31,581 nt of DNA from a virus (Duplodnaviria > Caudoviricetes): positions 1 to 31,581 of the IMG/VR virus record IMGVR_UViG_3300028025_002032; one strand, written 5' to 3'. The position numbers and the translations under genes were made by a program. Shown in pieces: positions 4,369-21,492 of the stretch. Within the stretch, counting starts at the first letter, position 1; every line of letters starts with the position of its first letter. Under the pieces are notes generated by a model. That model was not told where the DNA came from and made no database searches. It saw only the letters and a program-made list of their open reading frames with translations.

Positions 4369-5010
4369 ATGTTTGTAGCTTACTACCGTGTAAGCACTCA
4401 ACGTCAGGGCCAGTCAGGCCTTGGCCTTGAGGCTCAACAATCAGCCGTTAAGGCTTTCATCAAAGACCAGGTACTTGTCGCTGAGTTTACAGAGATAGAG
4501 TCTGGTCGCAAAAACAACCGCCCACAGCTGGCACAGGCCCTGGCTCTTGCTAAAAAGCATAAAGCCACATTGGTTATTGCCAAGCTGGATCGTCTTGCTC
4601 GTAACGTTCACTTCATCTCAGGTTTATTAGAGTCAAACGTGCAATTCGTGGCTGCCGATATGCCTGAGGCTGACCGTACATTCCTACAGATGGCAGCAGT
4701 ATTCGCTGAGTGGGAGGCAAAGAAGATATCAGAACGCACTAAATCAGCCCTACAGATGGCTAAAGCTCGTGGCACTAAGTTAGGTAGTCCAGCTCCACAG
4801 AACGGCTCTAAGGCTGGTTTAAACGCTATCCAAAGCCGTGTTGATAGTTATGTGATGCAGATGGCTCCAGTAATCAAGGAGTTTATCGGCATGGACTTGC
4901 GTTCAGTAGCTCAGGTATTGAGCCAGAGAGGGTTTAAAACGCCAAGAGGTAACACTCAATGGCATCCATCCCAGGTTGGGACATTAATGAGAAAGGTGCA
5001 GTATGCGTGA
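4369..5010 (+). CDS. Serine recombinase (resolvase/invertase family) with short C-terminal recombinase-like DNA-binding domain
   Basis: YYRVST catalytic Ser motif, AKLDRLARN, ISERTK; C-terminal LRSVA..L...G..TPRG..WH. Confidence 0.93.
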   Translation: MFVAYYRVSTQRQGQSGLGLEAQQSAVKAFIKDQVLVAEFTEIESGRKNNRPQLAQALALAKKHKATLVIAKLDRLARNVHFISGLLESNVQFVAADMPEADRTFLQMAAVFAEWEAKKISERTKSALQMAKARGTKLGSPAPQNGSKAGLNAIQSRVDSYVMQMAPVIKEFIGMDLRSVAQVLSQRGFKTPRGNTQWHPSQVGTLMRKVQYA

Positions 5011-5837: not shown

Positions 5838-6007
5838 TGGATTATTCAGAATTGATTTTGGAATCAAACCGTTTGATAAGAGAGATCCACAAAGCCACTA
5901 CAGTTAGAAACTTTGAGATTGCAGAACAATACTCAGAGAACTTTGTTAGAGTGGCCAACTCTTTACAGCACACACTCACACTTATAAACGCAGAAGAAAG
6001 AGAATAA
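5837..6007 (+). CDS. Hypothetical protein, 56 aa
   Basis: Hand-translated MDYSELILESNRLIREIHKA...; overlaps with both neighbours. Confidence 0.7.
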   Translation: MDYSELILESNRLIREIHKATTVRNFEIAEQYSENFVRVANSLQHTLTLINAEERE

Positions 6008-6963
6008 TGGTCGGTAAACTCACACCAAACACGATGCTATCAGCATCACGGCTCCCAGCAATTATGGGAATGAGCAAGTATCGCTCTGCCAATGATGAGT
6101 TGCTTATGTCAATTGAGGCCATCAAGGGCAATCAACCACCAGACATCAGTAACGAGTCAATGGAATGGGGTAACAGGCTAGAGCCAACCATTCTCATGGA
6201 GGCAGCCAACCGTCTGGGATGCAGTCAGCTAGATTACAACCACGAGGAGGCTTACTTTCACGATGACTGGCCTATCAGTTGTAGCTTAGACGGTACAGCT
6301 ACTGGCAATGGAGAGGAGTTGTTTTCTGATCCTGAGCGTGGCATCTTTGTAGTCGGTCAGGACTCTATCAGACTGGATGGCACAGGCGTATTAGAGGCAA
6401 AGCTCACAGCGATGGATGCTGAGGATATGCCTCCATTGTGGCGTGGACCATTGCAACTACAGGCTCAGATGGCTATTTATAAAGCTCAATGGGGTGCGAT
6501 TGCTACGCTATACAAGGGTACAGAGTTGCGTATCTTTGTCTTTGCTTTGCATCAGCAGACTCTGGAGACGATTGAGAAAGTATCTAAAGACTTTCAAGAC
6601 CGTCTTGATAGGTTCAAAAATACTGGAGAGATTGATTACTACCCAGTACAGAACCCTAAGGATGCAGCTCGCACCTACTCAGATGCTATAGACGATGAGC
6701 CAATGAAACTGGATGACTACGCAGAGGAGTTGGCAAAGCTAATCCAAGAGAACAAAGCCAAGGCAGCAAAGCTAGAGGCAGAGAATGAGCAAGCTCAGAC
6801 TCAACTCATGGAGATCCTTAGAAATCATAAATACGGTATTGCTGGCAAGTATCAAATCTCATGGCCAACTCGTACCTACAAAGCAACTTTATCTAGGATT
6901 GTCCCAGCCAAAGAGGCGTACACAGTACGTCAAAGCACATTAACCATTAAGGAATTGAAATGA
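6007..6963 (+). CDS. YqaJ-like viral recombinase exonuclease
   Basis: LSASRLPAIMGMSKY, WGNRLEP, SLDG, LEAK, QLQAQM motifs of lambda-Exo/YqaJ family. Confidence 0.9.
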   Translation: MVGKLTPNTMLSASRLPAIMGMSKYRSANDELLMSIEAIKGNQPPDISNESMEWGNRLEPTILMEAANRLGCSQLDYNHEEAYFHDDWPISCSLDGTATGNGEELFSDPERGIFVVGQDSIRLDGTGVLEAKLTAMDAEDMPPLWRGPLQLQAQMAIYKAQWGAIATLYKGTELRIFVFALHQQTLETIEKVSKDFQDRLDRFKNTGEIDYYPVQNPKDAARTYSDAIDDEPMKLDDYAEELAKLIQENKAKAAKLEAENEQAQTQLMEILRNHKYGIAGKYQISWPTRTYKATLSRIVPAKEAYTVRQSTLTIKELK

Positions 6964-7712
6964 AAAACATAGCAACAGCATTGGTCAAAGCTCAGAAAGA
7001 CTTTGCACCAGCACTCAAGGACTCTAACAATCCTTTTTTTAAGACTAAGTACGCTGACCTATCAGCTTGCGTTAAGGCCGTCATTGATGCGCTGAATAAC
7101 AACGGCATTGCATTGGTACAGAAGTGCCACCCATGCGATGATGGGGTATCAGTAGAGACCATCTTTATCCACGAATCTGGAGAGCTACTGGACTGTGGCA
7201 TCCTCCACGTACCAGCTGCGAAGAACGATCCACAGGGTTACGGCTCTGCTCTTACATACGCTAGACGTTACTCACTCATGGCAGCCTGTGGCATCGCTCC
7301 AGAGGATGACGATGGCAACGCAGCAAGCAGAGGCAGACCAGCACCGATGGCTAATCCGTTGAACTTTGCCAAGACAGATGCAAGTGTTTTGGAAAATAAG
7401 GCAAAAAATATTATAGAGAGTAGCGTAAATACAACACTTCCTGAGAACATAGAACCAGTCTTGAGATTAGCTCTGCGTATCCCAGGAAAGGATGATACCT
7501 TGTTTGATAGCATGACTGACTGGGTTGAGGCTTACAATGCAATGGCTGATAAGGTAGCCATGTCTAAATCAATGGGTAAGGATACCAAGCGAATGAAGTT
7601 AGAGGAGTTGCACGGATCTAACAAGCACATCATTGACAAGATGAACCCTGTACAAATCTCAGGCATGAACGCCTTTACTGCTAAACGCAGAGCCTTGATT
7701 GATGCAAGTTAG
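6960..7712 (+). CDS. erf: ERF-family single-strand annealing protein
   Basis: NPFFKTKYADL, PQGYGSALTYARRYSL, EDDDGN. Confidence 0.93.
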   Translation: MKNIATALVKAQKDFAPALKDSNNPFFKTKYADLSACVKAVIDALNNNGIALVQKCHPCDDGVSVETIFIHESGELLDCGILHVPAAKNDPQGYGSALTYARRYSLMAACGIAPEDDDGNAASRGRPAPMANPLNFAKTDASVLENKAKNIIESSVNTTLPENIEPVLRLALRIPGKDDTLFDSMTDWVEAYNAMADKVAMSKSMGKDTKRMKLEELHGSNKHIIDKMNPVQISGMNAFTAKRRALIDAS

Positions 7713-7948: not shown

Positions 7949-8148
7949 TTAGATGGTCAGGGACTGTACTGTGTTTGATAGGTATAGCCTTGACCAGTCT
8001 AAATATATACCCTTTAAACCTCGTATTTGGGCTTGTAGGGAGCTTTCTTTGGACAGTCCAAGGCTACCTATACCGAGACAATGCCTTGCTCATAGTGGAG
8101 CTTGTAGCGACTATCATATACATCGCTGGTTTAATAGCTATCCTTTAG
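7945..8148 (+). CDS. Small multi-pass membrane protein
   Basis: About three hydrophobic segments; ATGA overlap. Confidence 0.75.
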   Translation: MIRWSGTVLCLIGIALTSLNIYPLNLVFGLVGSFLWTVQGYLYRDNALLIVELVATIIYIAGLIAIL

Positions 8149-9161
8149 ACTCCCCAAATCTTTCCACGGAAAGTAACTTCACCCTTCTCCTCATCCCAAA
8201 CTTGCACTAGCTCTGGGGGTAGCAGCTGCCCTCTCTCGTAGGTCAACATAGCAAAGCCACTCCTGTGATCCCTTGCTGAGTCCTCCATGTAACTGAACTG
8301 CTGGCCATAAGGATTAGCCAGGCATCCAGTTTGTACGCCATAGATGGTACCCATTCTGAAAGCTGGATTCAATGTCGTGAATGGATGCACAGTCAATACG
8401 TGGGTATGTCCTGTCACCGTATGTACTGAGCTTGCCTGTACGTTGGATCTGCCAGCGTTGTAGCCACCCTTATGACGATGCTTAATCTGAGTATCATCAT
8501 TCACCCAGAACGACCAGCAAGATTGCCACAATGGAAAGTGGTCTTTAAGGGTAAACCCTTTGATGCCTTCATAGTTATGTGCGGAGCTGTTAGCAAGCAT
8601 GGATTCAAAGCGAGCATCGTGATTACCCAATGTCCATATCAGGTTCTGCTTAATCCTTGATGCGTTCTCAACCTCAGTCAAATACTCAACGCAAGCATCT
8701 AGCTCTTGCTTAACTGTGAACGTCTGATCCCATCCAAACTTTGGGAATCTGCTGAGTCGTTGGCCATCAAAAGCATCTCCATTACAGACAATCACATCAG
8801 GCTTAAACTCTTTAATCATCTCAATCAAAGCTCTGGAGGCAGTCGTATCGTAGCCAGGTATGATGTGGGCATCAGAGAATACTATGACTCTGCCCTTCTC
8901 CATTGCTATGCCACGCCTGACGTTATGCTCCGCTTGCTGGATGCGCTTTTCTACTCTCTGTTTTAAACCTTCTTTGTCATACTTAACTGTATTCCCACTA
9001 TGGTTTGTTGTCTCCAAGACAATACCTTTACTGGCTAACTCACCTCTCCTACGGTAAACATTCCTAACGCTAATTCCTAAGTAGTCAGCGACTGCTTGGG
9101 GGGATCCTAATTCTTTGAATAGTCTTATGAACTCTACTTCATTGCATGATGCTTGAACCAT
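8145..9161 (-). CDS. Calcineurin-like metallophosphoesterase with N-terminal HTH
   Basis: DAH, GDAFD, GNHD, GHTH motifs; N-terminal SPQAVADYLGISVRNVYRR. Confidence 0.9.
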   Translation of the reverse strand: MVQASCNEVEFIRLFKELGSPQAVADYLGISVRNVYRRRGELASKGIVLETTNHSGNTVKYDKEGLKQRVEKRIQQAEHNVRRGIAMEKGRVIVFSDAHIIPGYDTTASRALIEMIKEFKPDVIVCNGDAFDGQRLSRFPKFGWDQTFTVKQELDACVEYLTEVENASRIKQNLIWTLGNHDARFESMLANSSAHNYEGIKGFTLKDHFPLWQSCWSFWVNDDTQIKHRHKGGYNAGRSNVQASSVHTVTGHTHVLTVHPFTTLNPAFRMGTIYGVQTGCLANPYGQQFSYMEDSARDHRSGFAMLTYERGQLLPPELVQVWDEEKGEVTFRGKIWGV

Positions 9162-9502
9162 TAAAGCTCCTTGGGGTCATAGCCTAATTGCGTGGCTACC
9201 CTGTGTGATAGGGTTTTAAATACCTTATCGTGTTTGTCCCAGCTCTTGCTGTTTTTAATATACAGTCTCATGTGGATTAATTCGTGTGCAGTTGTGCGAA
9301 TAATATGGTCTATAAACGATAGCCTAGCGGATGAGATTCTGATGGTATGAGGGTCAGGCTCGTACTCTCCATAGCAACTTGGATCATTATTAACCTCAAA
9401 GTTCACATCTTTAGATGGAGGTAAATCCCACCGATTAAATGGAGGTACTTGTATTAGCATCTCGTATATTGCTTGTACAGTTTGCGGAGTAACTAATTTC
9501 AT
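9161..9502 (-). CDS. HExxH zincin-like (SprT-like) protein
   Basis: AHELIH plus downstream H (KHDKVF). Confidence 0.75.
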   Translation of the reverse strand: MKLVTPQTVQAIYEMLIQVPPFNRWDLPPSKDVNFEVNNDPSCYGEYEPDPHTIRISSARLSFIDHIIRTTAHELIHMRLYIKNSKSWDKHDKVFKTLSHRVATQLGYDPKEL

Positions 9503-9533: not shown

Positions 9534-10010
9534 TTAAGACTCAAACATCTCTTTCTCGTGAGTCCTTCTTTTAACTAAGCCAGGTAACACTTTGCCACCA
9601 GCCTTAGTCCATACCAAAAACTGCTCTGCTGCACCATCGTATTCACCTCGGTTTACCTTCATCCTGAGGGTAGAGTTCTGTAAGTTACCCAGTCCAACGT
9701 TGAACGAAAATGATACTAGAGCATCAAATTGCCCTTGTGTCAATGGGACTTTTATTAATCTTAAAACTCCAGCCTCAAACCTTGCTAGATCCTTACGTAG
9801 GATTTCATCAATCTCATCGGCACTTAGAACTCTATCCCAACCTGGAGGTATAGGTAATGCCTTTCTATCAGCCATCGGTACTCTAGCATGGTTAGGGTCA
9901 ATAACATGGCCTACTCCTACAGTCCAAAGCAAGGCTGGGCATTGGTACGGCTTACTCTTAACGCCCTCATCTTGCTTTATTTGTTGAATACACTTTGGGC
10001 TTACTCTCAC
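9534..10010 (-). CDS. Endolysin, GH24 lysozyme
   Basis: E-G...C....WTVGVGH catalytic region, FDALVSFSFNVG, LPGLVKRR. Confidence 0.95.
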   Translation of the reverse strand: MRVSPKCIQQIKQDEGVKSKPYQCPALLWTVGVGHVIDPNHARVPMADRKALPIPPGWDRVLSADEIDEILRKDLARFEAGVLRLIKVPLTQGQFDALVSFSFNVGLGNLQNSTLRMKVNRGEYDGAAEQFLVWTKAGGKVLPGLVKRRTHEKEMFES

Positions 10011-10510
10011 TTCTTGCTCCAGCCTCTTGATCCAAACCAGTAGCCGATGATTGCACCTAGCATAGCCATCTCATCTTCGCTGAATATCATGTCAGTTGCT
10101 TTGAGAAAGTCATCAACGTTAGTAATCAATGTGCCGTGGTTAAACAAGTAAACACCAATACCGATATTGATAATGAACAACTCAGCAACAAACAAGTAGG
10201 TAACGACAGGTCTAACTGTAGCTACAAAGGTTGATGCCCACGGAGCAGCCTTCTCAAGTACCTTAGCATCGTGAGCGTAGGCAGCCTTAGTCATCTCAGC
10301 ATCAGTCTCCATCATCACTTGGTCTGTGCGAATCTCCTCTACCTTAGCTTGAGCAATAAAGCCACGCTCCATCATCTGTAGCTCTCTGTCAGTCTGCATC
10401 TGAGCTAACTCTAGCTCATGCTTTTTGTCAGATTTATCTTGAAAAAATCCTAGCAGACTAGGTAGGCCAGAGACCAGTAGGCCTCCAAGGGTTGATATCA
10501 ATGAAAACAT
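10007..10510 (-). CDS. Holin-like membrane protein (3TM/GTA-type holin resemblance)
   Basis: DKKHELEL, VRPVVTY, IIGYWFGSR; directly upstream of endolysin. Confidence 0.7.
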   Translation of the reverse strand: MFSLISTLGGLLVSGLPSLLGFFQDKSDKKHELELAQMQTDRELQMMERGFIAQAKVEEIRTDQVMMETDAEMTKAAYAHDAKVLEKAAPWASTFVATVRPVVTYLFVAELFIINIGIGVYLFNHGTLITNVDDFLKATDMIFSEDEMAMLGAIIGYWFGSRGWSKK

Positions 10511-10512
10511 AC

Positions 10513-10938
10513 TTACTCCTTATTAACTAATGGGTTATCTAAAGCTCTACGGATCTTGTTGTCAGTCTCCTTACGCATCTCACGCAAGTCCTTATCTACC
10601 TCACGAGCTAACACCTTGCCGTCTCGCTCAACCTGTTCAACAACCTTCTCCAATCTGCGTACATCATTCTTGATGTCGTTCTTGATGTCTCTTGTATAGT
10701 CATTGACCTTGGCTGTGGACTCCTCCATCAGAGCCAACTTCTTATCGTACTCAGTAAAGTCTGGGCTGACATAGTTCTTGATGGCAGAACGCATACTCAT
10801 GTAGTCGTTGTAAACCTCAAAGGCTCCCCAGAAAGCACCACCAACTACAGGCGCAATAGCGACTACCATCACCATCAACTTGTTGGTTAGCTTAAAGCTA
10901 AAGCCAGCTACACTAATTTCTTTCTCTATATTGCTCAT
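10513..10938 (-). CDS. Single-pass membrane protein with C-terminal coiled coil
   Basis: TM LMVMVVAIAPVVGGAFWGAF then heptad-rich domain ending ALDNPL. Confidence 0.8.
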   Translation of the reverse strand: MSNIEKEISVAGFSFKLTNKLMVMVVAIAPVVGGAFWGAFEVYNDYMSMRSAIKNYVSPDFTEYDKKLALMEESTAKVNDYTRDIKNDIKNDVRRLEKVVEQVERDGKVLAREVDKDLREMRKETDNKIRRALDNPLVNKE

Positions 10939-12130
10939 CTATCATATCCTCATGGCTACGTTGTCCACCAATGGTCATCAAGTAATAGGCTCTCGCATTG
11001 GTACTCAAGGGTTTATTAATCATCTTTCTGCTCAGTAAATCAATGAGTTGCACTTGCTCAATCTTAACAGGGGTAGCAACTATATTGGGCATCTCAATGG
11101 ACTTAGCCTCAGCAGTTTTTGTTTGAGGTTTGCTAGTGGGTTTAGGCTCAGGCTTGCTGTCTTTTTTCTCTGGCTGACTAGATGGCTGACTAGATGGCTC
11201 AGGATTCCTAGCATTGGATACAGGGTTACTAGCAGTTGGAGCTGGTCTAGTTACCACCTCGTTTACTACAGAGTCTGCAATGATAGGGGTCTCCATAGAT
11301 ACCGTACCAGTTGTACTTATTTGCAAAACAGGAGCAGAGATAGCAATGGCTCTAGGAGCCACGATATTAGCTAAGGCATAGGCTTCGTTGTATCCTGGGC
11401 AATCACGGTCATACAGAGCGTTTAAAGTACATTGCTGGGCAAAGTATGCTTGCTGATAGCCAGGACAACTAGGACTGTATATGGGATTGATAGAGCATTG
11501 CTGCGCTAGGTAGGCATCTGCATAGCCTGGGCATGATGGGTCTGATAGAGGATTGGATAAACAGAGATTACCTGTAGAGCCAACTATATGACTAGGTGCT
11601 ATAGTTGAGCTGTAGCCTGGGCCGTGATAGAACTGAGTGTATTCACCTTGAGTTGTATCTCCTGTGATACCCATTGTGATAGGTCTCCACGGACTGATGT
11701 TAATCTTCTCGTAATGGATACCGATATATCCTGATGGCCTAATCTCTAGGCCAAAGGTATTGAGGTTGCCTGGTACGCCATACTCTGAGATGTTCTCCCA
11801 CATATATCTTTGAAACTGTGGGGTGCCTTCAGTTAGGAATCTGCCTTGACCATAGTTAATGAGGTCTGTCTGTAGAGGCATGATAGAGAAGTTAAACTCA
11901 TATCCTCTGGCATTACGTAGGTCGTGGCCTGAGCAGCACCAATGATTGTTTACTGATCCAAAGCCCACAACACCGTTACTGTACATAAAGCTATCAGTAA
12001 ATGTACGGCCATACAAAGGAAAAGGAAACTGTAGAGGGATACGGACATGACCATCATCCGATATCTGATGTTGAATGACTTGAGCCTGAGCTATACCAAT
12101 ACAGGCTAGTAAGGCTACCAGCCATTTCAT
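10913..12130 (-). CDS. Exported protein with NIDO-like domain, Cys repeats and Pro/Ser-rich linker
   Basis: Signal peptide (..AQA/Q); DDG..IPLQFPFPLYG.TF....MYSNGVVGF; three C-x9-CPGY repeats. Confidence 0.8.
   Translation of the reverse strand: MKWLVALLACIGIAQAQVIQHQISDDGHVRIPLQFPFPLYGRTFTDSFMYSNGVVGFGSVNNHWCCSGHDLRNARGYEFNFSIMPLQTDLINYGQGRFLTEGTPQFQRYMWENISEYGVPGNLNTFGLEIRPSGYIGIHYEKINISPWRPITMGITGDTTQGEYTQFYHGPGYSSTIAPSHIVGSTGNLCLSNPLSDPSCPGYADAYLAQQCSINPIYSPSCPGYQQAYFAQQCTLNALYDRDCPGYNEAYALANIVAPRAIAISAPVLQISTTGTVSMETPIIADSVVNEVVTRPAPTASNPVSNARNPEPSSQPSSQPEKKDSKPEPKPTSKPQTKTAEAKSIEMPNIVATPVKIEQVQLIDLLSRKMINKPLSTNARAYYLMTIGGQRSHEDMIDEQYRERN
11366..11563 (-). repeat. Three tandem 22-aa Cys repeats (C..NP.Y.P.CPGY..AY.AQQ)
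   Basis: Cys at aa 190, 212, 234 of the 405-aa protein; 66-nt period. Confidence 0.9.
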
Positions 12131-12579
12131 TTTATCTTAGGTCTAGTAGGGATTAGTTGAGGGTTAGCAAGCCAATGGTTCTTAGCCTCTACGTTTATCT
12201 TGCCTTCAATCGGACAAGGTACGCCACCATCCCACATGGACCACCAGACTCTAGCATCTTGGCAGAGTAGAGCAGCTGCTGGAGCCTTCATCTGTAGAGA
12301 GGATAGCTCTCTTGAGAGGATCACTAGCTCACAATTAAGGTCTGTAAAGGTAGAGCCAGCAGAGAATCCAAGAATCTGAGTTTGAATAGCAGCTGATACG
12401 CCACCCTTACACATCACGTTATTAATCGTGGTTACGTTAGGAGAGATAGCAGATGGAGGAGGAGACTTGACTGTGGTCTCAGCCTTGCTGGTTGATTCGG
12501 TTACGATTGGTTGAGCCATAGCTACTGCTATTGATCCACCAATGAGCAGTCCAATTAGTAAGTAACTAATGGATTTCAT
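12127..12579 (-). CDS. Exported Cys-containing protein of unknown function
   Basis: Signal peptide (..AMA/Q); PPPSAISP, four Cys. Confidence 0.8.
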   Translation of the reverse strand: MKSISYLLIGLLIGGSIAVAMAQPIVTESTSKAETTVKSPPPSAISPNVTTINNVMCKGGVSAAIQTQILGFSAGSTFTDLNCELVILSRELSSLQMKAPAAALLCQDARVWWSMWDGGVPCPIEGKINVEAKNHWLANPQLIPTRPKIK

Positions 12580-12740
12580 ATCTTCAGAGATATAGTCAAA
12601 AGAGTAACAATGACAAAGGCTGCTGTACCCATGAGAATCTGCTCTAATCTTTTAAGACGAGCATTGATGGACTCATATCTAAATGCACAGACTTCTTCGT
12701 GAGTGCTTAGTCTTGCATCAGTTTCATTGATAGTAGCCAT
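12576..12740 (-). CDS. Small coiled-coil + C-terminal TM protein (XhlA/holin-like), 54 aa
   Basis: Hand-translated MATINETDARLSTHEEVCAFRYESINARLKRLEQILMGTAAFVIVTLLTISLKI; AGGAG RBS; ATGA overlap. Confidence 0.8.
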   Translation of the reverse strand: MATINETDARLSTHEEVCAFRYESINARLKRLEQILMGTAAFVIVTLLTISLKI

Positions 12741-12743
12741 CTA

Positions 12744-13277
12744 TTACTCCTGAGGAAAAGATAAATCTAAACTTGCCAACTCCTCTACAGAAGTTACAGC
12801 AGAGATACTAGCCTCTAGCTCTGTAGCCTTAGCCACTACAGATGCTCTGTATGCCGCCACAGAAGTAGGGATAGCAACATCTCTTTCAGCCTTACGAATA
12901 ACCATCCAATCGGTTTGAGCTAGGATAGAGCCAGCAGTCTGTTTAACTTGAGCAATGAAGTTAGACTTTAAGCCTTTAGTTACTAATCTTTCTGTTGTAT
13001 CAACCATTGATTCTGTAGTTGGGTCGTAAGCTTTAACAAACAAAGGATTGCCGTCTTGGTCTACTTCTTCTTTATCTTCCAATGCTTTAGGATTAGCTAA
13101 GTTACCATCCCAATAAAATCTGTCATCAGCACGAACAGCATCAGCTTCCCAGACTAGACCGATAGCAGACTTATCTGCCTCAGATGCTAGACGAATCCAG
13201 TTAGCAGGGTATTGAATGTCATTGTGTGTAAAAGGTGTATCCAGTTGGATAGTCTTAGTTCCGAGTTTAAAAGGCAT
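12744..13277 (-). CDS. Tail fibre assembly chaperone-like protein
   Basis: Follows RBP; C-terminal LAQTDWMVIR...YRA motif. Confidence 0.7.
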   Translation of the reverse strand: MPFKLGTKTIQLDTPFTHNDIQYPANWIRLASEADKSAIGLVWEADAVRADDRFYWDGNLANPKALEDKEEVDQDGNPLFVKAYDPTTESMVDTTERLVTKGLKSNFIAQVKQTAGSILAQTDWMVIRKAERDVAIPTSVAAYRASVVAKATELEASISAVTSVEELASLDLSFPQE

Positions 13278-17401: not shown

Positions 17402-20335
17402 CTAGCGTTTATATTTACCTTCTTCACGTTGCAATTCCTCAATGTCTCTAAACTGCATACGTAAATCAGGATCACTCATAATTAACATCTTCTTAGCATC
17501 TGAGTAGGCAGAGCTAATAACCTTATTCAATAGCTCTTGCGCACCTTTTAGGTCTTTATTTGCATAATCCCTAAACTCCTTGCTTTCATGGTACATCTTA
17601 AGACCATTAGAAATCTTGTTGTTAGCAGTCGCTAACTCAATCCATTGCGTGTACTGAACATCGTTTAGCTCTACACCATCCATGTTCTTAGGCACTTTGT
17701 ACATAGGGATACCGTACTGAGCCAGGATTAAATGGGGTTCGCTAAACTTACCGTCAGACATTTTGAATGGGCTAAATGTCTCATAAAAGTTACCCTTGCC
17801 AGCAGTCTTAACATAGCCAGTTAATGAGTCTAGGGCTGGAGGTAAACTGTCAGAACACAATGGATTTCTAGAGCAAGCGTAGCTGACTGCTTCCCAGTAA
17901 CCCTTACTTGCACCTGACAAGATATCTTGCTCCATTGGGCTAACAGCCTCTTTAACCAAAGACTTCTCAGGGTTCATAGTTCTTTCAACCATAGCCACAA
18001 AAGAGCTGTGGATGCCAGCTGGAGAACCACCAATAGCAAAGCTAGTCGCTTGCTTAGATAAACGAGTCATCGTGTTATATAGGAATGTAGGAGCATCTTT
18101 AGATCCAGAATTAAATATCTTATTAATTTCTCCAAAGCCTTGTAGCATTGGCTGGTCTGATAGATACTGGTACATGGCTAAACCGCCACCCAAAAACATC
18201 TTGCCCAAATCCTCGTTATTAGGATCTTGCTGAGAATACTCACCCATTGTTGCGCCAATAGATAGCAAAGTAGCTAATGGCTCTAAACCAGCGTAGCTAA
18301 TGTAAACCTTATCAGAGCTTACGTTTACCTTGGTTAGCTTTTCAAACTTAGCAATCATCTCAGGATCAACATCTGCCTTGTTAAATACAAAGGAAAACTG
18401 CTGCCATCCAGCACCTTCAAATACTTGCTTATCTTCGCTACGCATTGGGCCATAACCTGTTAGCTTACCCTCTAATGGACCAGATGCTACAGCATAAATT
18501 AAAGATGAGCCTAGAGTTACACGAGCTAAGGCTTGGTCTCTACGAATACCGCCAGCTTTGAAGTCGTTATAAAAGCGTGGGTTTCCAGTAATAACTGATA
18601 ATGGAGTTCTAGCCATTGTCTCCATTAAGATATTAGTAGGAGTCTTAATAAACGGCACAAACATCTTAATCAATGGACTCTGGGTAAACTCAGCCATTTT
18701 CTGCAAACTTGGTTCTAGCTCACGAGTAAATGTTACGGTACGAGATTGAGACTTAGCTGCCTCGTCTAGCTCTGCCGTAGGGTTAGCTAACAAATCTGCT
18801 AACAATTGCTCAGATTGCTTAGATGCTGAATCTGCATCAATACCCTTAGATACCAATGTATCAAACATCTTATTGCTCTCACGAACTGCTAAGGCATTTA
18901 ATTCCATGCGATATCCAACGGCTTTAAAGAACTCATCTTCAGCCATCAATGCACGACCTGGAGCAGTTACCGCTACGCCATAATACTTAACAGCATTAGT
19001 CAATGCTTGACCAAAATCGCTATCACCAAAGTCAGCATCAAACGGATTAGCGTTTACCCTACCTGATTCAATCTTAGAAAAAGCATCTGTAGGAGCATTG
19101 TTCTTAAATGCCTTAAGACCAATCTCACCACCCTCACGGATACCTTGCAATAATCCAATGGCTTGAGCTTGAATTTCATTTAACTGGATAGCCTTTTCAC
19201 CACCATTAAAAAAGAAGTTACGAGCCTTACCAATGCCTGATGCAACTAAACGCTCAGGGATCTGATACGCACCAAAGAACGTGTTACCAGAGATATTCTT
19301 AGCATGGGTTACTGGGCTAGACAATAGACCGTTAATCCATGTGGAGAACCACATATCTTTAAATCTCTCGTACATACCGCTAAAGCCATTAGCGTAACCA
19401 GATGCAGACATCTCTGCTCTTGCGCCACGAGAATCCAATGCTGTGTACTTAGATGCAAAGTCGTGTACAGAATCAATACCACCAGTCTCAGCCATAATGG
19501 CATCTAGCATCTGACCTCTAGCAGTCGTTGATTGACGAGCTTGAGAGAAGATACCTAGCGTTCTAGCGATATCTGCCTGACGGCCACGAGCAGCTTTAAG
19601 CAATGAACCCTCTAGGGCTACGGCTTGCTGAAACTCAGATGCCAACTCAGACGTTAAGTTACCAGCTAACTTAGCCTCCTTAACCTTTTCACCTAAGTCA
19701 AAGGCACGTTTACCAGCATCAGTAATAGCCAATAGCATCTTGTAAGCATCACCAGCATTAGCCTCTGTTACACGGCTAGGATCTAGCAATCGTGCAATAA
19801 ATTTCTCGTCATATCCTTCTTCAGCTGCTTTGGCTGCAATCTCTGTATAGCTAACTTTCTCTAGCTTATCTGCACCATATTGTCTAGCAGTCGCATCAAT
19901 GAATTGCTTAACGCCATTCTCATCTTGAATTAAATCTAGGTTAAATGGTCGCTCAACTACGCCAGCTGCAACTTGCTCAGTTGATGGAGATGGCTTACCA
20001 GTAATAGCAACCTCTGGAGGCATCTCAGTCATCTTCTCAGTAATAGCCTCAACTGTCTTAGGCTCTGCATCTTTGATAACTGTGTATGGCCCTACTTGAC
20101 CAGTCTCTGTACCTTCTTTAAGAATCTTTCTTTCAGTACGCTTAGGAGCCTTTAGGATTTCTTTAACAACATCTAAACGACCAGCGACTTGAGTTTCCTC
20201 GTAAGCTGGAGGCTCAGACTGCAATTGAACCATGTCAGATAACTTTGGCTCACCATCTGCAACTGGCAATACATCAAGGTTTTTATCTGCGCTAGATAAA
20301 TCATCTAGTCTTTCATTTAACGGTTTCATTGCCAT
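17402..20335 (-). CDS. Large internal virion (ejection) protein
   Basis: 977 aa helical protein before tail fibre; PFIKTPTNI and ISYAGLEPLA segments typical of such proteins. Confidence 0.7.
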   Translation of the reverse strand: MAMKPLNERLDDLSSADKNLDVLPVADGEPKLSDMVQLQSEPPAYEETQVAGRLDVVKEILKAPKRTERKILKEGTETGQVGPYTVIKDAEPKTVEAITEKMTEMPPEVAITGKPSPSTEQVAAGVVERPFNLDLIQDENGVKQFIDATARQYGADKLEKVSYTEIAAKAAEEGYDEKFIARLLDPSRVTEANAGDAYKMLLAITDAGKRAFDLGEKVKEAKLAGNLTSELASEFQQAVALEGSLLKAARGRQADIARTLGIFSQARQSTTARGQMLDAIMAETGGIDSVHDFASKYTALDSRGARAEMSASGYANGFSGMYERFKDMWFSTWINGLLSSPVTHAKNISGNTFFGAYQIPERLVASGIGKARNFFFNGGEKAIQLNEIQAQAIGLLQGIREGGEIGLKAFKNNAPTDAFSKIESGRVNANPFDADFGDSDFGQALTNAVKYYGVAVTAPGRALMAEDEFFKAVGYRMELNALAVRESNKMFDTLVSKGIDADSASKQSEQLLADLLANPTAELDEAAKSQSRTVTFTRELEPSLQKMAEFTQSPLIKMFVPFIKTPTNILMETMARTPLSVITGNPRFYNDFKAGGIRRDQALARVTLGSSLIYAVASGPLEGKLTGYGPMRSEDKQVFEGAGWQQFSFVFNKADVDPEMIAKFEKLTKVNVSSDKVYISYAGLEPLATLLSIGATMGEYSQQDPNNEDLGKMFLGGGLAMYQYLSDQPMLQGFGEINKIFNSGSKDAPTFLYNTMTRLSKQATSFAIGGSPAGIHSSFVAMVERTMNPEKSLVKEAVSPMEQDILSGASKGYWEAVSYACSRNPLCSDSLPPALDSLTGYVKTAGKGNFYETFSPFKMSDGKFSEPHLILAQYGIPMYKVPKNMDGVELNDVQYTQWIELATANNKISNGLKMYHESKEFRDYANKDLKGAQELLNKVISSAYSDAKKMLIMSDPDLRMQFRDIEELQREEGKYKR

Positions 20336-21492
20336 TATTTATTTTCCTCTTGAGACATTGCCGCACTAGTACCGCCAACACCTACACCTTTTAAAACACT
20401 TGGATTGGCTGGGTCAAAAGTAACGTTTCCTGTAGCTGATTTTAATTGCTTAGGGTCATACACAGCCAAATTCTTTATGCCACCCTCTTGAATGTAAAAT
20501 GAATCAAATCCAAGAGCCTTAATAGCTTTTTGCACATCTCTATCTTCAATCTTATCCCACTTACCCTCATCAAACCATGCTGGTTTAATACCTTTAAGTT
20601 GGCTATTTTTTTGCATATATTCAATAACTTTTGATACGTCATCAGAATTTTCATAATCAAAAGGATTAGATGCTTTTACATAAAGAGGCATTATATTTGG
20701 AGTGCCAGCTTGGTCTGCAATATATGTCTTGCCACCACCGCCAACATCTTCAACTAGCCCTGTAAACTGCTCTGCAAAAGATGGGTCTGGAGTTACAAAT
20801 ATTGCGCCTCTAGTACTGCGATTAAATTGGTCAAAATTACCACCAGTTCCGTGATACATAACTATGGGCTTACCAGTATCATCAACCGCTTTGGAATCAC
20901 CAAACCAATTCTTAAATGCTTTGCTTTCAACCTTTGGAGCTTTTTGTAATACCTGTTCTGTACCATCAAGCATTTTGATAGTAGCCTTAATCACAGGCTT
21001 TGCAAGCGCACTAATTGCCTTTATTTGCCCACCTGGAGCAACAATTTCACCACCTAGCTCACCACCTTCAGCAGCTCTTACACGCTCCTCTGTAGGTACG
21101 CCAGTCGTTTGACCTTGAGGCACTACTGGACCTAATAAAGACTCTAGCTTTTTACCAATGTCCTCAGAGGTAGGCAACGCAGTATTCTCATCAACGTTAT
21201 AACCAAGGTAGTTCAATGCCATACGGCCAATAGATTCTAAATCACCAGGCAATCCAGGGAAAGCCTGTATCATTCCTTTGCCAGCACCAGCCATCGTATC
21301 TGCAATCAATACAGACTGCTTGGCTTGATTCTCACGAGTGTTCAAACCCTTAGGCATATTCAAGCGATAGCCAACAAAAGCACCGCCATCCGTAGTAACG
21401 CCAGTATTAGCAGATGCTAACTGCATCTCCTGAGGATCAGGCTCCTCAACCAACTCTTGAGCTTTTAAGTCTATAAAGCGTTGGTCAATCAT
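20335..21492 (-). CDS. Internal virion protein with ADP-ribosyltransferase-like (ART-PolyVal) C-terminal domain
   Basis: FKNWFGDSK.VD..GKP.VMYHGT, IFVT, IMPLYVK..NPFD, GFDS, VYDPKQLKSATGN. Confidence 0.75.
   Translation of the reverse strand: MIDQRFIDLKAQELVEEPDPQEMQLASANTGVTTDGGAFVGYRLNMPKGLNTRENQAKQSVLIADTMAGAGKGMIQAFPGLPGDLESIGRMALNYLGYNVDENTALPTSEDIGKKLESLLGPVVPQGQTTGVPTEERVRAAEGGELGGEIVAPGGQIKAISALAKPVIKATIKMLDGTEQVLQKAPKVESKAFKNWFGDSKAVDDTGKPIVMYHGTGGNFDQFNRSTRGAIFVTPDPSFAEQFTGLVEDVGGGGKTYIADQAGTPNIMPLYVKASNPFDYENSDDVSKVIEYMQKNSQLKGIKPAWFDEGKWDKIEDRDVQKAIKALGFDSFYIQEGGIKNLAVYDPKQLKSATGNVTFDPANPSVLKGVGVGGTSAAMSQEENK

What the first reader, a model, noticed from the sequence alone, without database searches (positions are those of the whole stretch)
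10513..12740. Uncharacterised envelope-targeted cassette between tail and lysis genes (NIDO-like/Cys-repeat protein, Cys exported protein, two membrane coiled coils)
Seen: four overlapping, translationally coupled genes that all enter the envelope: 54-aa coiled-coil+TM, 150-aa signal-peptide protein with 4 Cys, 405-aa signal-peptide protein with nidogen-like N-domain, three 22-aa CPGY repeats and a Pro/Ser stalk, and a 141-aa TM+coiled-coil protein. Virion proteins normally lack signal peptides, and no canonical Rz/Rz1 spanin pair is visible. Inference: best candidate for an undescribed system here, either an alternative outer-membrane disruption/release apparatus or a surface adhesin/exclusion complex displayed by infected cells.
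Basis: partly seen in the sequence, partly recalled or inferred. Interest (0 to 1): 0.72.

Follow-up and report, generated by a model that had tools for sequence, protein, structure and literature searches.

The report
Phage pore-adhesin-tether envelope trio
Three overlapping genes beside this phage's cell-bursting genes travel together as one cassette in many phages, including cultured marine SAR11 phages, and likely build an outer-membrane pore, a swappable surface adhesin and an inner-membrane tether on the infected cell, probably not as a stand-in for the usual outer-membrane-bursting proteins.

Summary
The four ORFs are real and overlap, but only three form a unit: A (150 aa), B (405 aa) and C (141 aa). 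All 70 viral A loci with enough flank carry B next door and C downstream, as do five cultured pelagiphages whose loci were read. The 54-aa gene is independent. A has an uncharged, disulfide-closed beta-hairpin, no PDB match, and bacterial homologues beside secreted Gly/Ser-rich proteins or fused to an OmpA peptidoglycan-binding domain. B has swappable heads on 0-12 Cys repeats; NIDO support is weak. 23 loci add a pilin/adhesin-like Ig protein. Against spanin replacement: 9 of 50 records carry the trio plus a canonical spanin pair, and 44 relatives with the same holin and lysozyme lack both. For it: in phage Mosig the trio fills the slot where two relatives have spanins. Best reading (0.5, inferred): a new trans-envelope display system working like phage curli secretion. 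Rivals: spanin-like (0.2), lysis-timing sensor (0.12). No complex model was obtainable. This scan noted the trio on other DNA three times; my literature searches found no description.

The parts
12127..12579 (-). A, 150 aa: signal-peptide-like N-terminus, conserved PPxAxxP motif, disulfide-closed beta-hairpin and four helices; likely subunit of an oligomeric outer-membrane pore or anchor
   Evidence: 2769 homologues; PHROG 20531, unknown function
12331..12411 (-). A residues Cys57-Cys83: beta-hairpin with one hydrophobic face and one small-polar face, uncharged over residues 59-78 except position 76
   Evidence: AF2 strands at model residues 35-43 and 48-56, pLDDT blocks 52-73; column statistics over 80 sequences
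10913..12130 (-). B, 405 aa: signal-peptide-like N-terminus, head domain, three Cys repeats, Pro/Ser/Lys linker and C-terminal domain ending in a conserved H-x-x-M-x-D-x-Q-Y-like motif; likely displayed adhesin or passenger
11573..12082 (-). B head, residues 17-186; one of at least three head types found on B homologues; NIDO-like by resemblance only
11366..11563 (-). three 22-aa two-Cys repeats (0-12 copies in homologues)
10513..10938 (-). C, 141 aa: single N-proximal TM segment, coiled-coil-like helix and C-terminal NPL motif; likely type II inner-membrane tether
   Evidence: NP[LI] in the last 14 residues of 80 of 82 homologues, TM segment in 65 of 82; homologue HTVC115P gp49
12576..12740 (-). 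X, 54 aa: helix plus C-terminal TM; neighbour, not a member of the trio
10007..10510 (-). holin-like membrane protein directly downstream (context)
   Evidence: PHROG 6637 (unknown function) E 2e-17; PHROG 3427 holin E 0.0036
9534..10010 (-). phage lysozyme (context)
   Evidence: PF00959 E 3e-41

Best explanation
A, B and C are a conserved three-gene cassette that likely builds a trans-envelope display apparatus on the infected cell: A would oligomerise through its beta-hairpins into an outer-membrane pore or anchor, B would be exported and held there by its C-terminal domain with its swappable head displayed on a variable-length disulfide stalk, and C would tether the assembly to the inner membrane. 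Shown: gene order, co-occurrence, motif conservation, head swapping, co-existence with spanins, and dispensability beside the same holin and lysozyme. Predicted: export, the hairpin, and an Ig fold for accessory protein D. Inferred: the pore, the A-B-C contacts, the outside location of B's head, late expression, and the purpose, most likely sticking the infected cell to other cells or particles so that progeny are released near new hosts, or masking its surface.
For: (1) B follows A and C lies downstream in 70 of 70 A loci with at least 4 kb of flank. The loci include small podoviruses and contigs of 100-200 kb, and the same order is seen in HTVC115P, HTVC023P, HTVC202P, HTVC033P and the T4-like Mosig. 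(2) A's hairpin is 20 residues, alternating and uncharged, a pattern typical of outer-membrane strands (established knowledge). (3) Bacterial A homologues are genuine (hhalign probability 99.4, E 1e-21). In 6 of 7 positive bacterial genomes, plus Burkholderia and Variovorax records, A lies in a cluster with a signal-peptide protein of low complexity; the 8 measured are 67-80% G/S/A/T/N and 1-4% charged, recalling a curli-type pore plus subunit. In Novosphingobium the A core is fused to an OmpA peptidoglycan-binding domain (E 1e-17), a partner that normally goes with an outer-membrane barrel. (4) 13 of 89 phage A proteins carry 129-376 residues before the core, 62-85% N/T/S. (5) B has adhesin architecture: head clusters of 79, 40 and 5 plus singletons, 0-12 repeats, 281-946 aa. 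In 27 close relatives median identity is 61% for A, 68% for the B head and 35% for the B C-terminus, against 90% for C, 95% for the holin and 87% for the lysozyme. (6) 23 loci insert D and E (19 also F) between B and C. D's model (pLDDT 88) has chaperone-usher pilins (CfaB, FimF, PapG pilin domain) as top Foldseek hits at E 2e-3 to 3e-3, and ESM features point to SCPU and Fimbrial_CS1 clusters at 0.91-0.93. (7) Precedent: marine phages encode CsgG/CsgF/CsgA-B secretion, with 'sibling capture' proposed (PMC9599517, PMC7029224, passages).
Against: No oligomer or complex model exists, and the hairpin is the less confident part of the monomer model (pLDDT 52-73). A has no detectable homology to CsgG (hhalign probability at most 0.2). 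Curli and chaperone-usher systems need no inner-membrane tether, so C is unexplained by the analogy, and C tracks the holin (90% versus 95% identity), as a lysis protein would. 34 of 96 A homologues end in a hydrophobic tail, which may anchor them in the inner membrane instead. D's fold match is below Foldseek significance, and VIA gives only generic beta-sandwiches (best Z 7.9). E's chaperone-like reading is by eye (no Pfam or PDB hit). The trio often sits in lysis clusters. Buchholz et al. saw no clumping with curli-bearing Melnitz and favour a lysis-control role for phage CsgGF (PMC9004378, passages). A occurs without B and C in RSP15 and bacteria, and B's C-terminus was not detected in 4 of 43 A-bearing holin loci or in MW202481.
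Confidence: 0.5

Rival explanations
1. Non-canonical spanin or outer-membrane disruption helper: C acts as the i-spanin, A replaces the o-spanin lipoprotein with a membrane-inserting hairpin, B is a linker or regulator, and the complex fuses or tears the membranes after the wall is digested.
For: C has i-spanin topology (TM, helical periplasmic domain, conserved C-terminus; definition from PMC6139136 passages) and is coupled to the holin gene. The window, 4 near-complete small phages and 4 cultured pelagiphages show no convincing lipobox ORF. In Mosig the trio lies just before a conserved gene and the primase, where HTVC008M and Melnitz have spanin-family genes; Mosig has no match to that family. 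In small phages the trio alternates with an unrelated 150-aa membrane protein Y (Y in 42 of 44 trio-less loci, 0 of 43 trio loci; at least 4 switches on the holin tree), which could mean one job with two solutions.
Against: 9 of 50 records carry A, B, C and an adjacent i-spanin/o-spanin pair. None of 44 trio-less relatives has an o-spanin of the tested family, and one has a lipobox ORF. Only 10 of 35 loci had a PHROG lysis gene among the 1-6 neighbours scanned. Swappable heads, repeat-number variation, N/T-rich extensions and a pilin-like partner have no role in membrane fusion. Bacteria keep A chromosomally. Y co-occurs with A in 22 other loci. Mosig has three lipobox ORFs elsewhere, one of 67 aa.
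Confidence: 0.2
2. Lysis-timing sensor: B's head senses something outside (host cells, particles, superinfecting phage), and the signal passes through A and C to the holin, in the manner of T4 lysis inhibition (recalled).
For: C is translationally coupled to the holin and co-varies with it, while A and B vary fast. All parts needed for a trans-envelope relay are present. A similar lysis-control role was proposed for phage CsgGF (PMC9004378, passages).
Against: The trio sits next to unrelated holins and endolysins and often next to none. There is no evidence of C-holin contact. Pilin-like D and the bacterial operons are unexplained.
Confidence: 0.12
3. Periplasmic envelope brace or superinfection block: all three parts stay inside the envelope, stabilising it during a long infection or blocking entry of competing phage DNA.
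For: OmpA-domain fusion of A; hydrophobic C-terminal tails in 34 of 96 A; long acidic linkers in pelagiphage B.
Against: Rapid head swapping and pilin-like D suggest exposure; position among late genes suits exclusion poorly (inference).
Confidence: 0.12
4. Ordinary virion components (fibre or decoration proteins).
For: Lies directly after tail-fibre genes in the window; B has fibre-like repeats.
Against: Conserved signal-peptide-like N-termini and paired cysteines; shared by podoviruses and T4-like myoviruses; chromosomal bacterial homologues. One search found no pelagiphage virion proteome to test this.
Confidence: 0.04

Closest known systems
Phage-encoded type VIII (curli) secretion, CsgG/CsgF/CsgA-B, of pelagiphages and Melnitz (PMC9599517, PMC7029224, PMC9004378; passages read)
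   Same: Multigene envelope cassette moved between podoviruses and myoviruses of streamlined aquatic bacteria; Sec-exported parts; likely an oligomeric beta-hairpin pore with a low-complexity or adhesive passenger. A's hairpin resembles the CsgG hairpin by eye.
   Different: No homology between A and CsgG; no CsgG in 50 of 50 A-bearing records; no curlin family hit; includes an inner-membrane coiled coil; the passenger is a folded, disulfide-rich protein.
Two-component spanins (lambda Rz/Rz1, T4 PseT.3/PseT.2; PMC6139136, passages read)
   Same: C has i-spanin-like topology and a conserved C-terminus, and often lies in the lysis cluster.
   Different: No lipoprotein partner; C has no Cys and no spanin family hit; three to six genes instead of two; co-exists with true spanin pairs in 9 of 50 records.
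Chaperone-usher pili (alternate CfaB/CS1 and archaic Csu/SCPU types)
   Same: Accessory protein D of 23 related loci is predicted to have a pilin/adhesin-like Ig fold and is followed by a small exported protein E.
   Different: No usher over cut-off in 11 records (mostly fragments); no PapD-family hit for E; D and E are absent from the window's version.
Lambda Lom/Bor-type envelope accessory genes in tail and lysis regions (recalled, not from a call)
   Same: Non-essential envelope proteins carried beside lysis genes.
   Different: Those are single genes of temperate phages; this is a multi-protein unit that also occurs in lytic T4-like phages.

Membership tests
Two-component spanin | Type II inner-membrane protein with helical periplasmic domain | tested here: met
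   C: TM 21-39; TM in 65 of 82 homologues, more positive before the TM in 57 of 82
Two-component spanin | Outer-membrane lipoprotein partner (lipobox Cys) encoded with it | tested here: not met
   A and B have no lipobox; no lipobox ORF in the window (6 of 8 control o-spanins found)
Two-component spanin | Sequence match to known spanin families | tested here: not met
   No spanin hit for C, A or B in PHROGs, Pfam or NCBIfam, whereas spanins in related loci are detected
Two-component spanin | Complements Rz/Rz1 loss by membrane fusion | not testable with these tools
   bench test
Type VIII (curli) secretion | CsgG-family pore | tested here: not met
   PF03783 in 0 of 50 records (found in HTVC008M and Melnitz); hhalign of A against phage CsgG, probability at most 0.2
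Type VIII (curli) secretion | Curlin-repeat subunit and CsgF | tested here: not met
   No such Pfam hit for window genes, long A proteins or bacterial partner proteins
Type VIII (curli) secretion | Oligomeric outer-membrane beta-barrel built from hairpins | tested here: inconclusive
   Hairpin predicted and amphipathic; no oligomer model could be obtained
Chaperone-usher pilus (related D/E/F loci) | Ig-fold pilin subunit | tested here: inconclusive
   Foldseek top hits are pilins at E 2e-3, TM 0.42-0.54; VIA best Z 7.9 to unrelated beta-sandwiches
Chaperone-usher pilus (related D/E/F loci) | Usher (PF00577) | tested here: inconclusive
   0 of 11 records over cut-off, but the 10 D-bearing records are only 12-52% complete; none in the window, 93% complete
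Chaperone-usher pilus (related D/E/F loci) | PapD-like periplasmic chaperone | tested here: inconclusive
   E has no Pfam or PDB sequence hit; its fold was not modelled
NIDO domain (PF06119) for the B head | Pfam NIDO match | tested here: inconclusive
   Window B: none; 1 of 37 heads at E 0.012; no PDB sequence match; fold not modelled

The most novel reading that the evidence does not exclude
The A family is the pore of an undescribed two-step secretion system, built from two-stranded hairpin subunits, that bacteria use to export Gly/Ser-rich fibre subunits and that phages have captured and spread across families to coat infected cells with interchangeable adhesins and, in the D/E/F variant, an usher-free pilus, anchored across the periplasm by C.
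Probability: 0.3. Interest if true: 0.9.

Novelty: categorically new. Interest (0 to 1): 0.72.

Why it matters
The cassette is common: about 5,100 stored stretches of IMG/VR are estimated to hold an A-type pattern. It is present in cultured SAR11 phages (A in 6 Pelagibacter phage records), so it can be tested now. If the display reading holds, it adds a new outer-membrane export or anchoring machine with a chromosomal bacterial counterpart, and makes the 'sibling capture' idea testable in a second, unrelated system. If the spanin-like reading holds, it helps explain how phages without recognisable spanins cross the outer membrane. None of its three proteins has a significant Pfam or NCBIfam match, and A and the B head have no PDB match. 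The novelty class refers to that distance; the function itself is inferred.

Tried and rejected
Four-gene unit: rejected, X is independent. TonB reading of B (GenBank label in MW202481; NCBIfam E 0.054): only the Pro-rich linker matches. 'Chemotaxis protein CheA' names on Burkholderia A homologues: no support seen. A as a CsgG or TolC relative: no hhalign support for CsgG; no PDB fold match (Foldseek best E 0.93; VIA best Z 3.1), which does not prove a new fold; BFVD hits were uncharacterised or unnamed viral proteins. A and F as paralogues: hhalign probability 8.6, unresolved. The C-termini of the two B types: probability 32, unresolved. Mutual exclusion with curli: CsgG in 0 of 50 A records and A in 0 of 15 CsgG records (a 16th record, without CsgG, also lacked A), but only 3 of the 15 are near-complete and the curli genes are not in the trio's slot, so not used as evidence. 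Weak phrog_739 hits (5 of 14 records, E above 1e-8) were not counted, since the profile also rang in 8 of 14 control genomes. The single-protein scan of bacterial genomes gave 6 loci in MAGs, and the 3 inspected looked phage-like. ESM Atlas for A gave only unnamed viral clusters. Literature searches listed nothing that describes the trio. Supplements were not opened, and gene tables of the pelagiphage papers may bear on expression timing. PMC12753301 (abstract and one section) concerns phages that were not among my hits.
Full report
Setting. The window is a 31,581-base virus record, 93% complete by CheckV. It is a podovirus by gene content: major head protein, head-tail adaptor, nozzle-like tail protein, internal virion proteins and tail fibres, plus a serine recombinase and RecE/Erf genes. 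The finding lies on the minus strand between a tail-fibre assembly gene (12744-13277) and a holin-like gene (10007-10510) followed by a lysozyme (9534-10010).

Observation. All four ORFs exist as described and overlap by 4, 4 and 26 bases. I call them X (54 aa), A (150), B (405) and C (141). A has four Cys. B has three 22-residue two-Cys repeats, which shuffles never reproduce (0 of 10,000 with two or more). None of the four has a significant Pfam or NCBIfam hit; A and C match PHROG families of unknown function. The NIDO label is weak: none for the window, 1 of 37 heads at E 0.012.

The unit is A-B-C. A has 2,769 homologues in one protein search. Among A loci with at least 4 kb downstream, 70 of 70 have a B-type gene adjacent and a C-type gene further on. 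The B and C profiles were built from these loci, and several loci are near-copies. The same order occurs in five cultured pelagiphages whose loci I read; a sixth, Baldr, has A but was not opened. Exceptions: RSP15 has A alone; MW202481 and 4 of 43 A-bearing holin loci have A without a detectable B C-terminus. X occurs in 10 of 43 trio loci and 19 of 44 trio-less loci, so it is a neighbour. My own heuristic finds signal-peptide-like starts in 88 of 98 A and 62 of 79 B sequences, against 27 of 229 control ORFs.

A. The AF2 model of mature A (80 sequences, mean pLDDT 73.5) shows a two-stranded hairpin closed by Cys57-Cys83 and a confident four-helix domain; the hairpin itself is less confident. 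Across 80 homologues, residues 59-78 are uncharged except position 76, with alternating hydrophobic and Gly/Ser/Ala/Gln/Thr positions. This pattern fits an outer-membrane hairpin that needs partners to close a barrel (inference). No solved fold matches, and there is no homology to phage CsgG. In 13 of 89 phage A proteins, 129-376 residues that are 62-85% Asn/Thr/Ser precede the core; 34 of 96 end in a hydrophobic tail.

A in bacteria. Homologues were found in Burkholderia, Variovorax, Comamonas and Novosphingobium records (hhalign probability 99.4) and in 7 of 400 sampled genomes of one phylum besides the centre genome. In 6 of those 7, and in the Burkholderia and Variovorax records, A is clustered with an almost uncharged Gly/Ser/Ala-rich signal-peptide protein. 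In Novosphingobium humi the core is fused to an OmpA peptidoglycan-binding domain. Both contexts point to the outer envelope and to export or anchoring, not to lysis.

B and C. B homologues range from 281 to 946 aa (one 186-aa fragment aside) with 0-12 repeats, and their heads fall into clusters of 79, 40 and 5 sequences plus 6 singletons among 130. They share a C-terminal motif; a subgroup including four of the cultured pelagiphages has a different helical end. In 27 relatives with at least 85% holin identity, A and B have drifted (A 61%, B head 68%, linker 42%, C-terminus 35%) while C (90%), the holin (95%) and the lysozyme (87%) have not. C keeps a TM segment and an NPL end (80 of 82). A swappable head on a variable stalk with a conserved anchor is adhesin architecture (established knowledge). 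C has the shape of a periplasm-spanning tether, and equally of an i-spanin.

A larger variant. 23 loci insert D and E, and 19 also F, between B and C. D folds confidently in the best model (pLDDT 88; the five models range 56-88). Its top Foldseek hits are CfaB, FimF and the PapG pilin domain at E 2e-3 to 3e-3, none at or below 1e-3. ESM features agree, but VIA returns generic beta-sandwiches (best Z 7.9), so 'pilin or adhesin-like Ig fold' is all that is supported. F is a second signal-peptide protein with a Cys-flanked hairpin and a coiled coil (2,325 homologues). No usher was found in these fragmentary records.

Spanin test. Of 50 A-bearing records, 9 have a strong Rz-like match (E at most 1e-8), and the same 9 have an adjacent o-spanin (profile built from three of them; two records are near-identical). 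All 9 carry A, B and C, and the i-spanin is homologous to annotated i-spanins. As a control I took loci with the window's holin or lysozyme and at least 3.5 kb upstream: 43 have the module, 44 do not, and neither set has an o-spanin of this family. The module needs at least 4 gains or losses on a tree of 71 holins. So it is an exchangeable accessory and not a general spanin substitute. Two results cut the other way. Mosig has the trio where HTVC008M and Melnitz have spanin-family genes, and lacks that family, though it has three lipobox ORFs elsewhere. And trio-less small phages carry an unrelated membrane protein Y nearby (42 of 44 versus 0 of 43; the Y profile was seeded mainly from those loci), although Y and A co-occur in 22 other loci. 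Lysis linkage is partial: 10 of 35 loci had a PHROG lysis gene among the neighbours I scanned (148 of 302 candidate neighbours were submitted).

Mechanism. Most likely (0.5), late in infection A and B are exported by Sec and oxidised; A assembles an outer-membrane ring; B docks by its C-terminal domain and displays its head; C ties the ring to the inner membrane through its NPL end. The infected cell would gain a phage-chosen adhesin, helping progeny reach new hosts or masking the surface. Rivals are a non-lipoprotein spanin (0.2), a lysis-timing sensor (0.12), a periplasmic brace or exclusion system (0.12) and virion parts (0.04).

Relation to what is known. It works most like the phage-borne curli secretion described for pelagiphages (PMC9599517, PMC7029224; passages read), whose role is itself disputed (PMC9004378, passages: no clumping seen, lysis control proposed). 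It fails membership of curli secretion and of spanins (definition from PMC6139136, passages) on tested features; chaperone-usher membership of the D/E/F variant is inconclusive. Eight searches of the held library listed no description of the trio; subscription papers and supplements were not seen. Three earlier notes of this scan describe the same trio on other DNA and are not independent evidence.

Verdict. Real, widespread and uncharacterised; three genes, not four; probably a new envelope display machine. Interest 0.72.

Noticed in passing
e.g. L246:5051-5491, L253:4938-5390, L012:9815-10261: Protein Y (about 150 aa; N-terminal amphipathic helix, coiled coil, C-terminal TM; some members match phrog_32327) lies near the holin in 42 of 44 trio-less loci and 0 of 43 trio loci of this small-phage group. 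It may be an unrecognised lysis protein.
   Followed up: partly
L038:6989-10644, L053, L067, L107 and others (23 loci): Six-gene variant A-B-D-E-F-C with a pilin/adhesin-like Ig protein D, exported E and a second hairpin protein F: a candidate usher-free phage pilus.
   Followed up: partly
L297:456-2267, L298, L299, L300, L301, L302, L118, L119: Chromosomal bacterial cluster: a Gly/Ser/Ala-rich secreted protein, an A homologue and often a small exported protein; a candidate undescribed fibre or amyloid secretion operon.
   Followed up: partly
L120:6563-7687: Novosphingobium humi protein fusing a Ser/Asn/Thr-rich N-terminus, the A core and an OmpA peptidoglycan-binding domain.
   Followed up: partly
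window 20335-21492 (-): Internal-virion-region protein with an ART-PolyVal ADP-ribosyltransferase domain (PF18760, E 5e-18), probably injected with the DNA.
   Followed up: no
window 8145-9502 (-): An SprT-like metalloprotease (113 aa) and an HTH-metallophosphoesterase (338 aa) follow the lysozyme here and in many relatives.
   Followed up: no
window 4369-5010 (+) and 6007-7712 (+): Serine recombinase plus RecE-like exonuclease and Erf-like annealing protein in a podovirus-type genome, suggesting a temperate or recombinogenic lifestyle.
   Followed up: no
L038:9718-10080, L013:9045-9386, L090:10637-10975: Recurrent EF-hand-like plus transmembrane protein, a 120-aa lipoprotein and a lipase cluster with the trio in larger phages, possibly an unannotated lysis cluster.
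   Followed up: no
L306:8254-8787 (HTVC008M): Spanin-family genes appear split in the deposited record: a short i-spanin-like ORF and an o-spanin match in another frame, perhaps a sequencing frameshift.
   Followed up: no
L039:9589-10675, L047:9640-10726: Two tandem copies of C.
   Followed up: no
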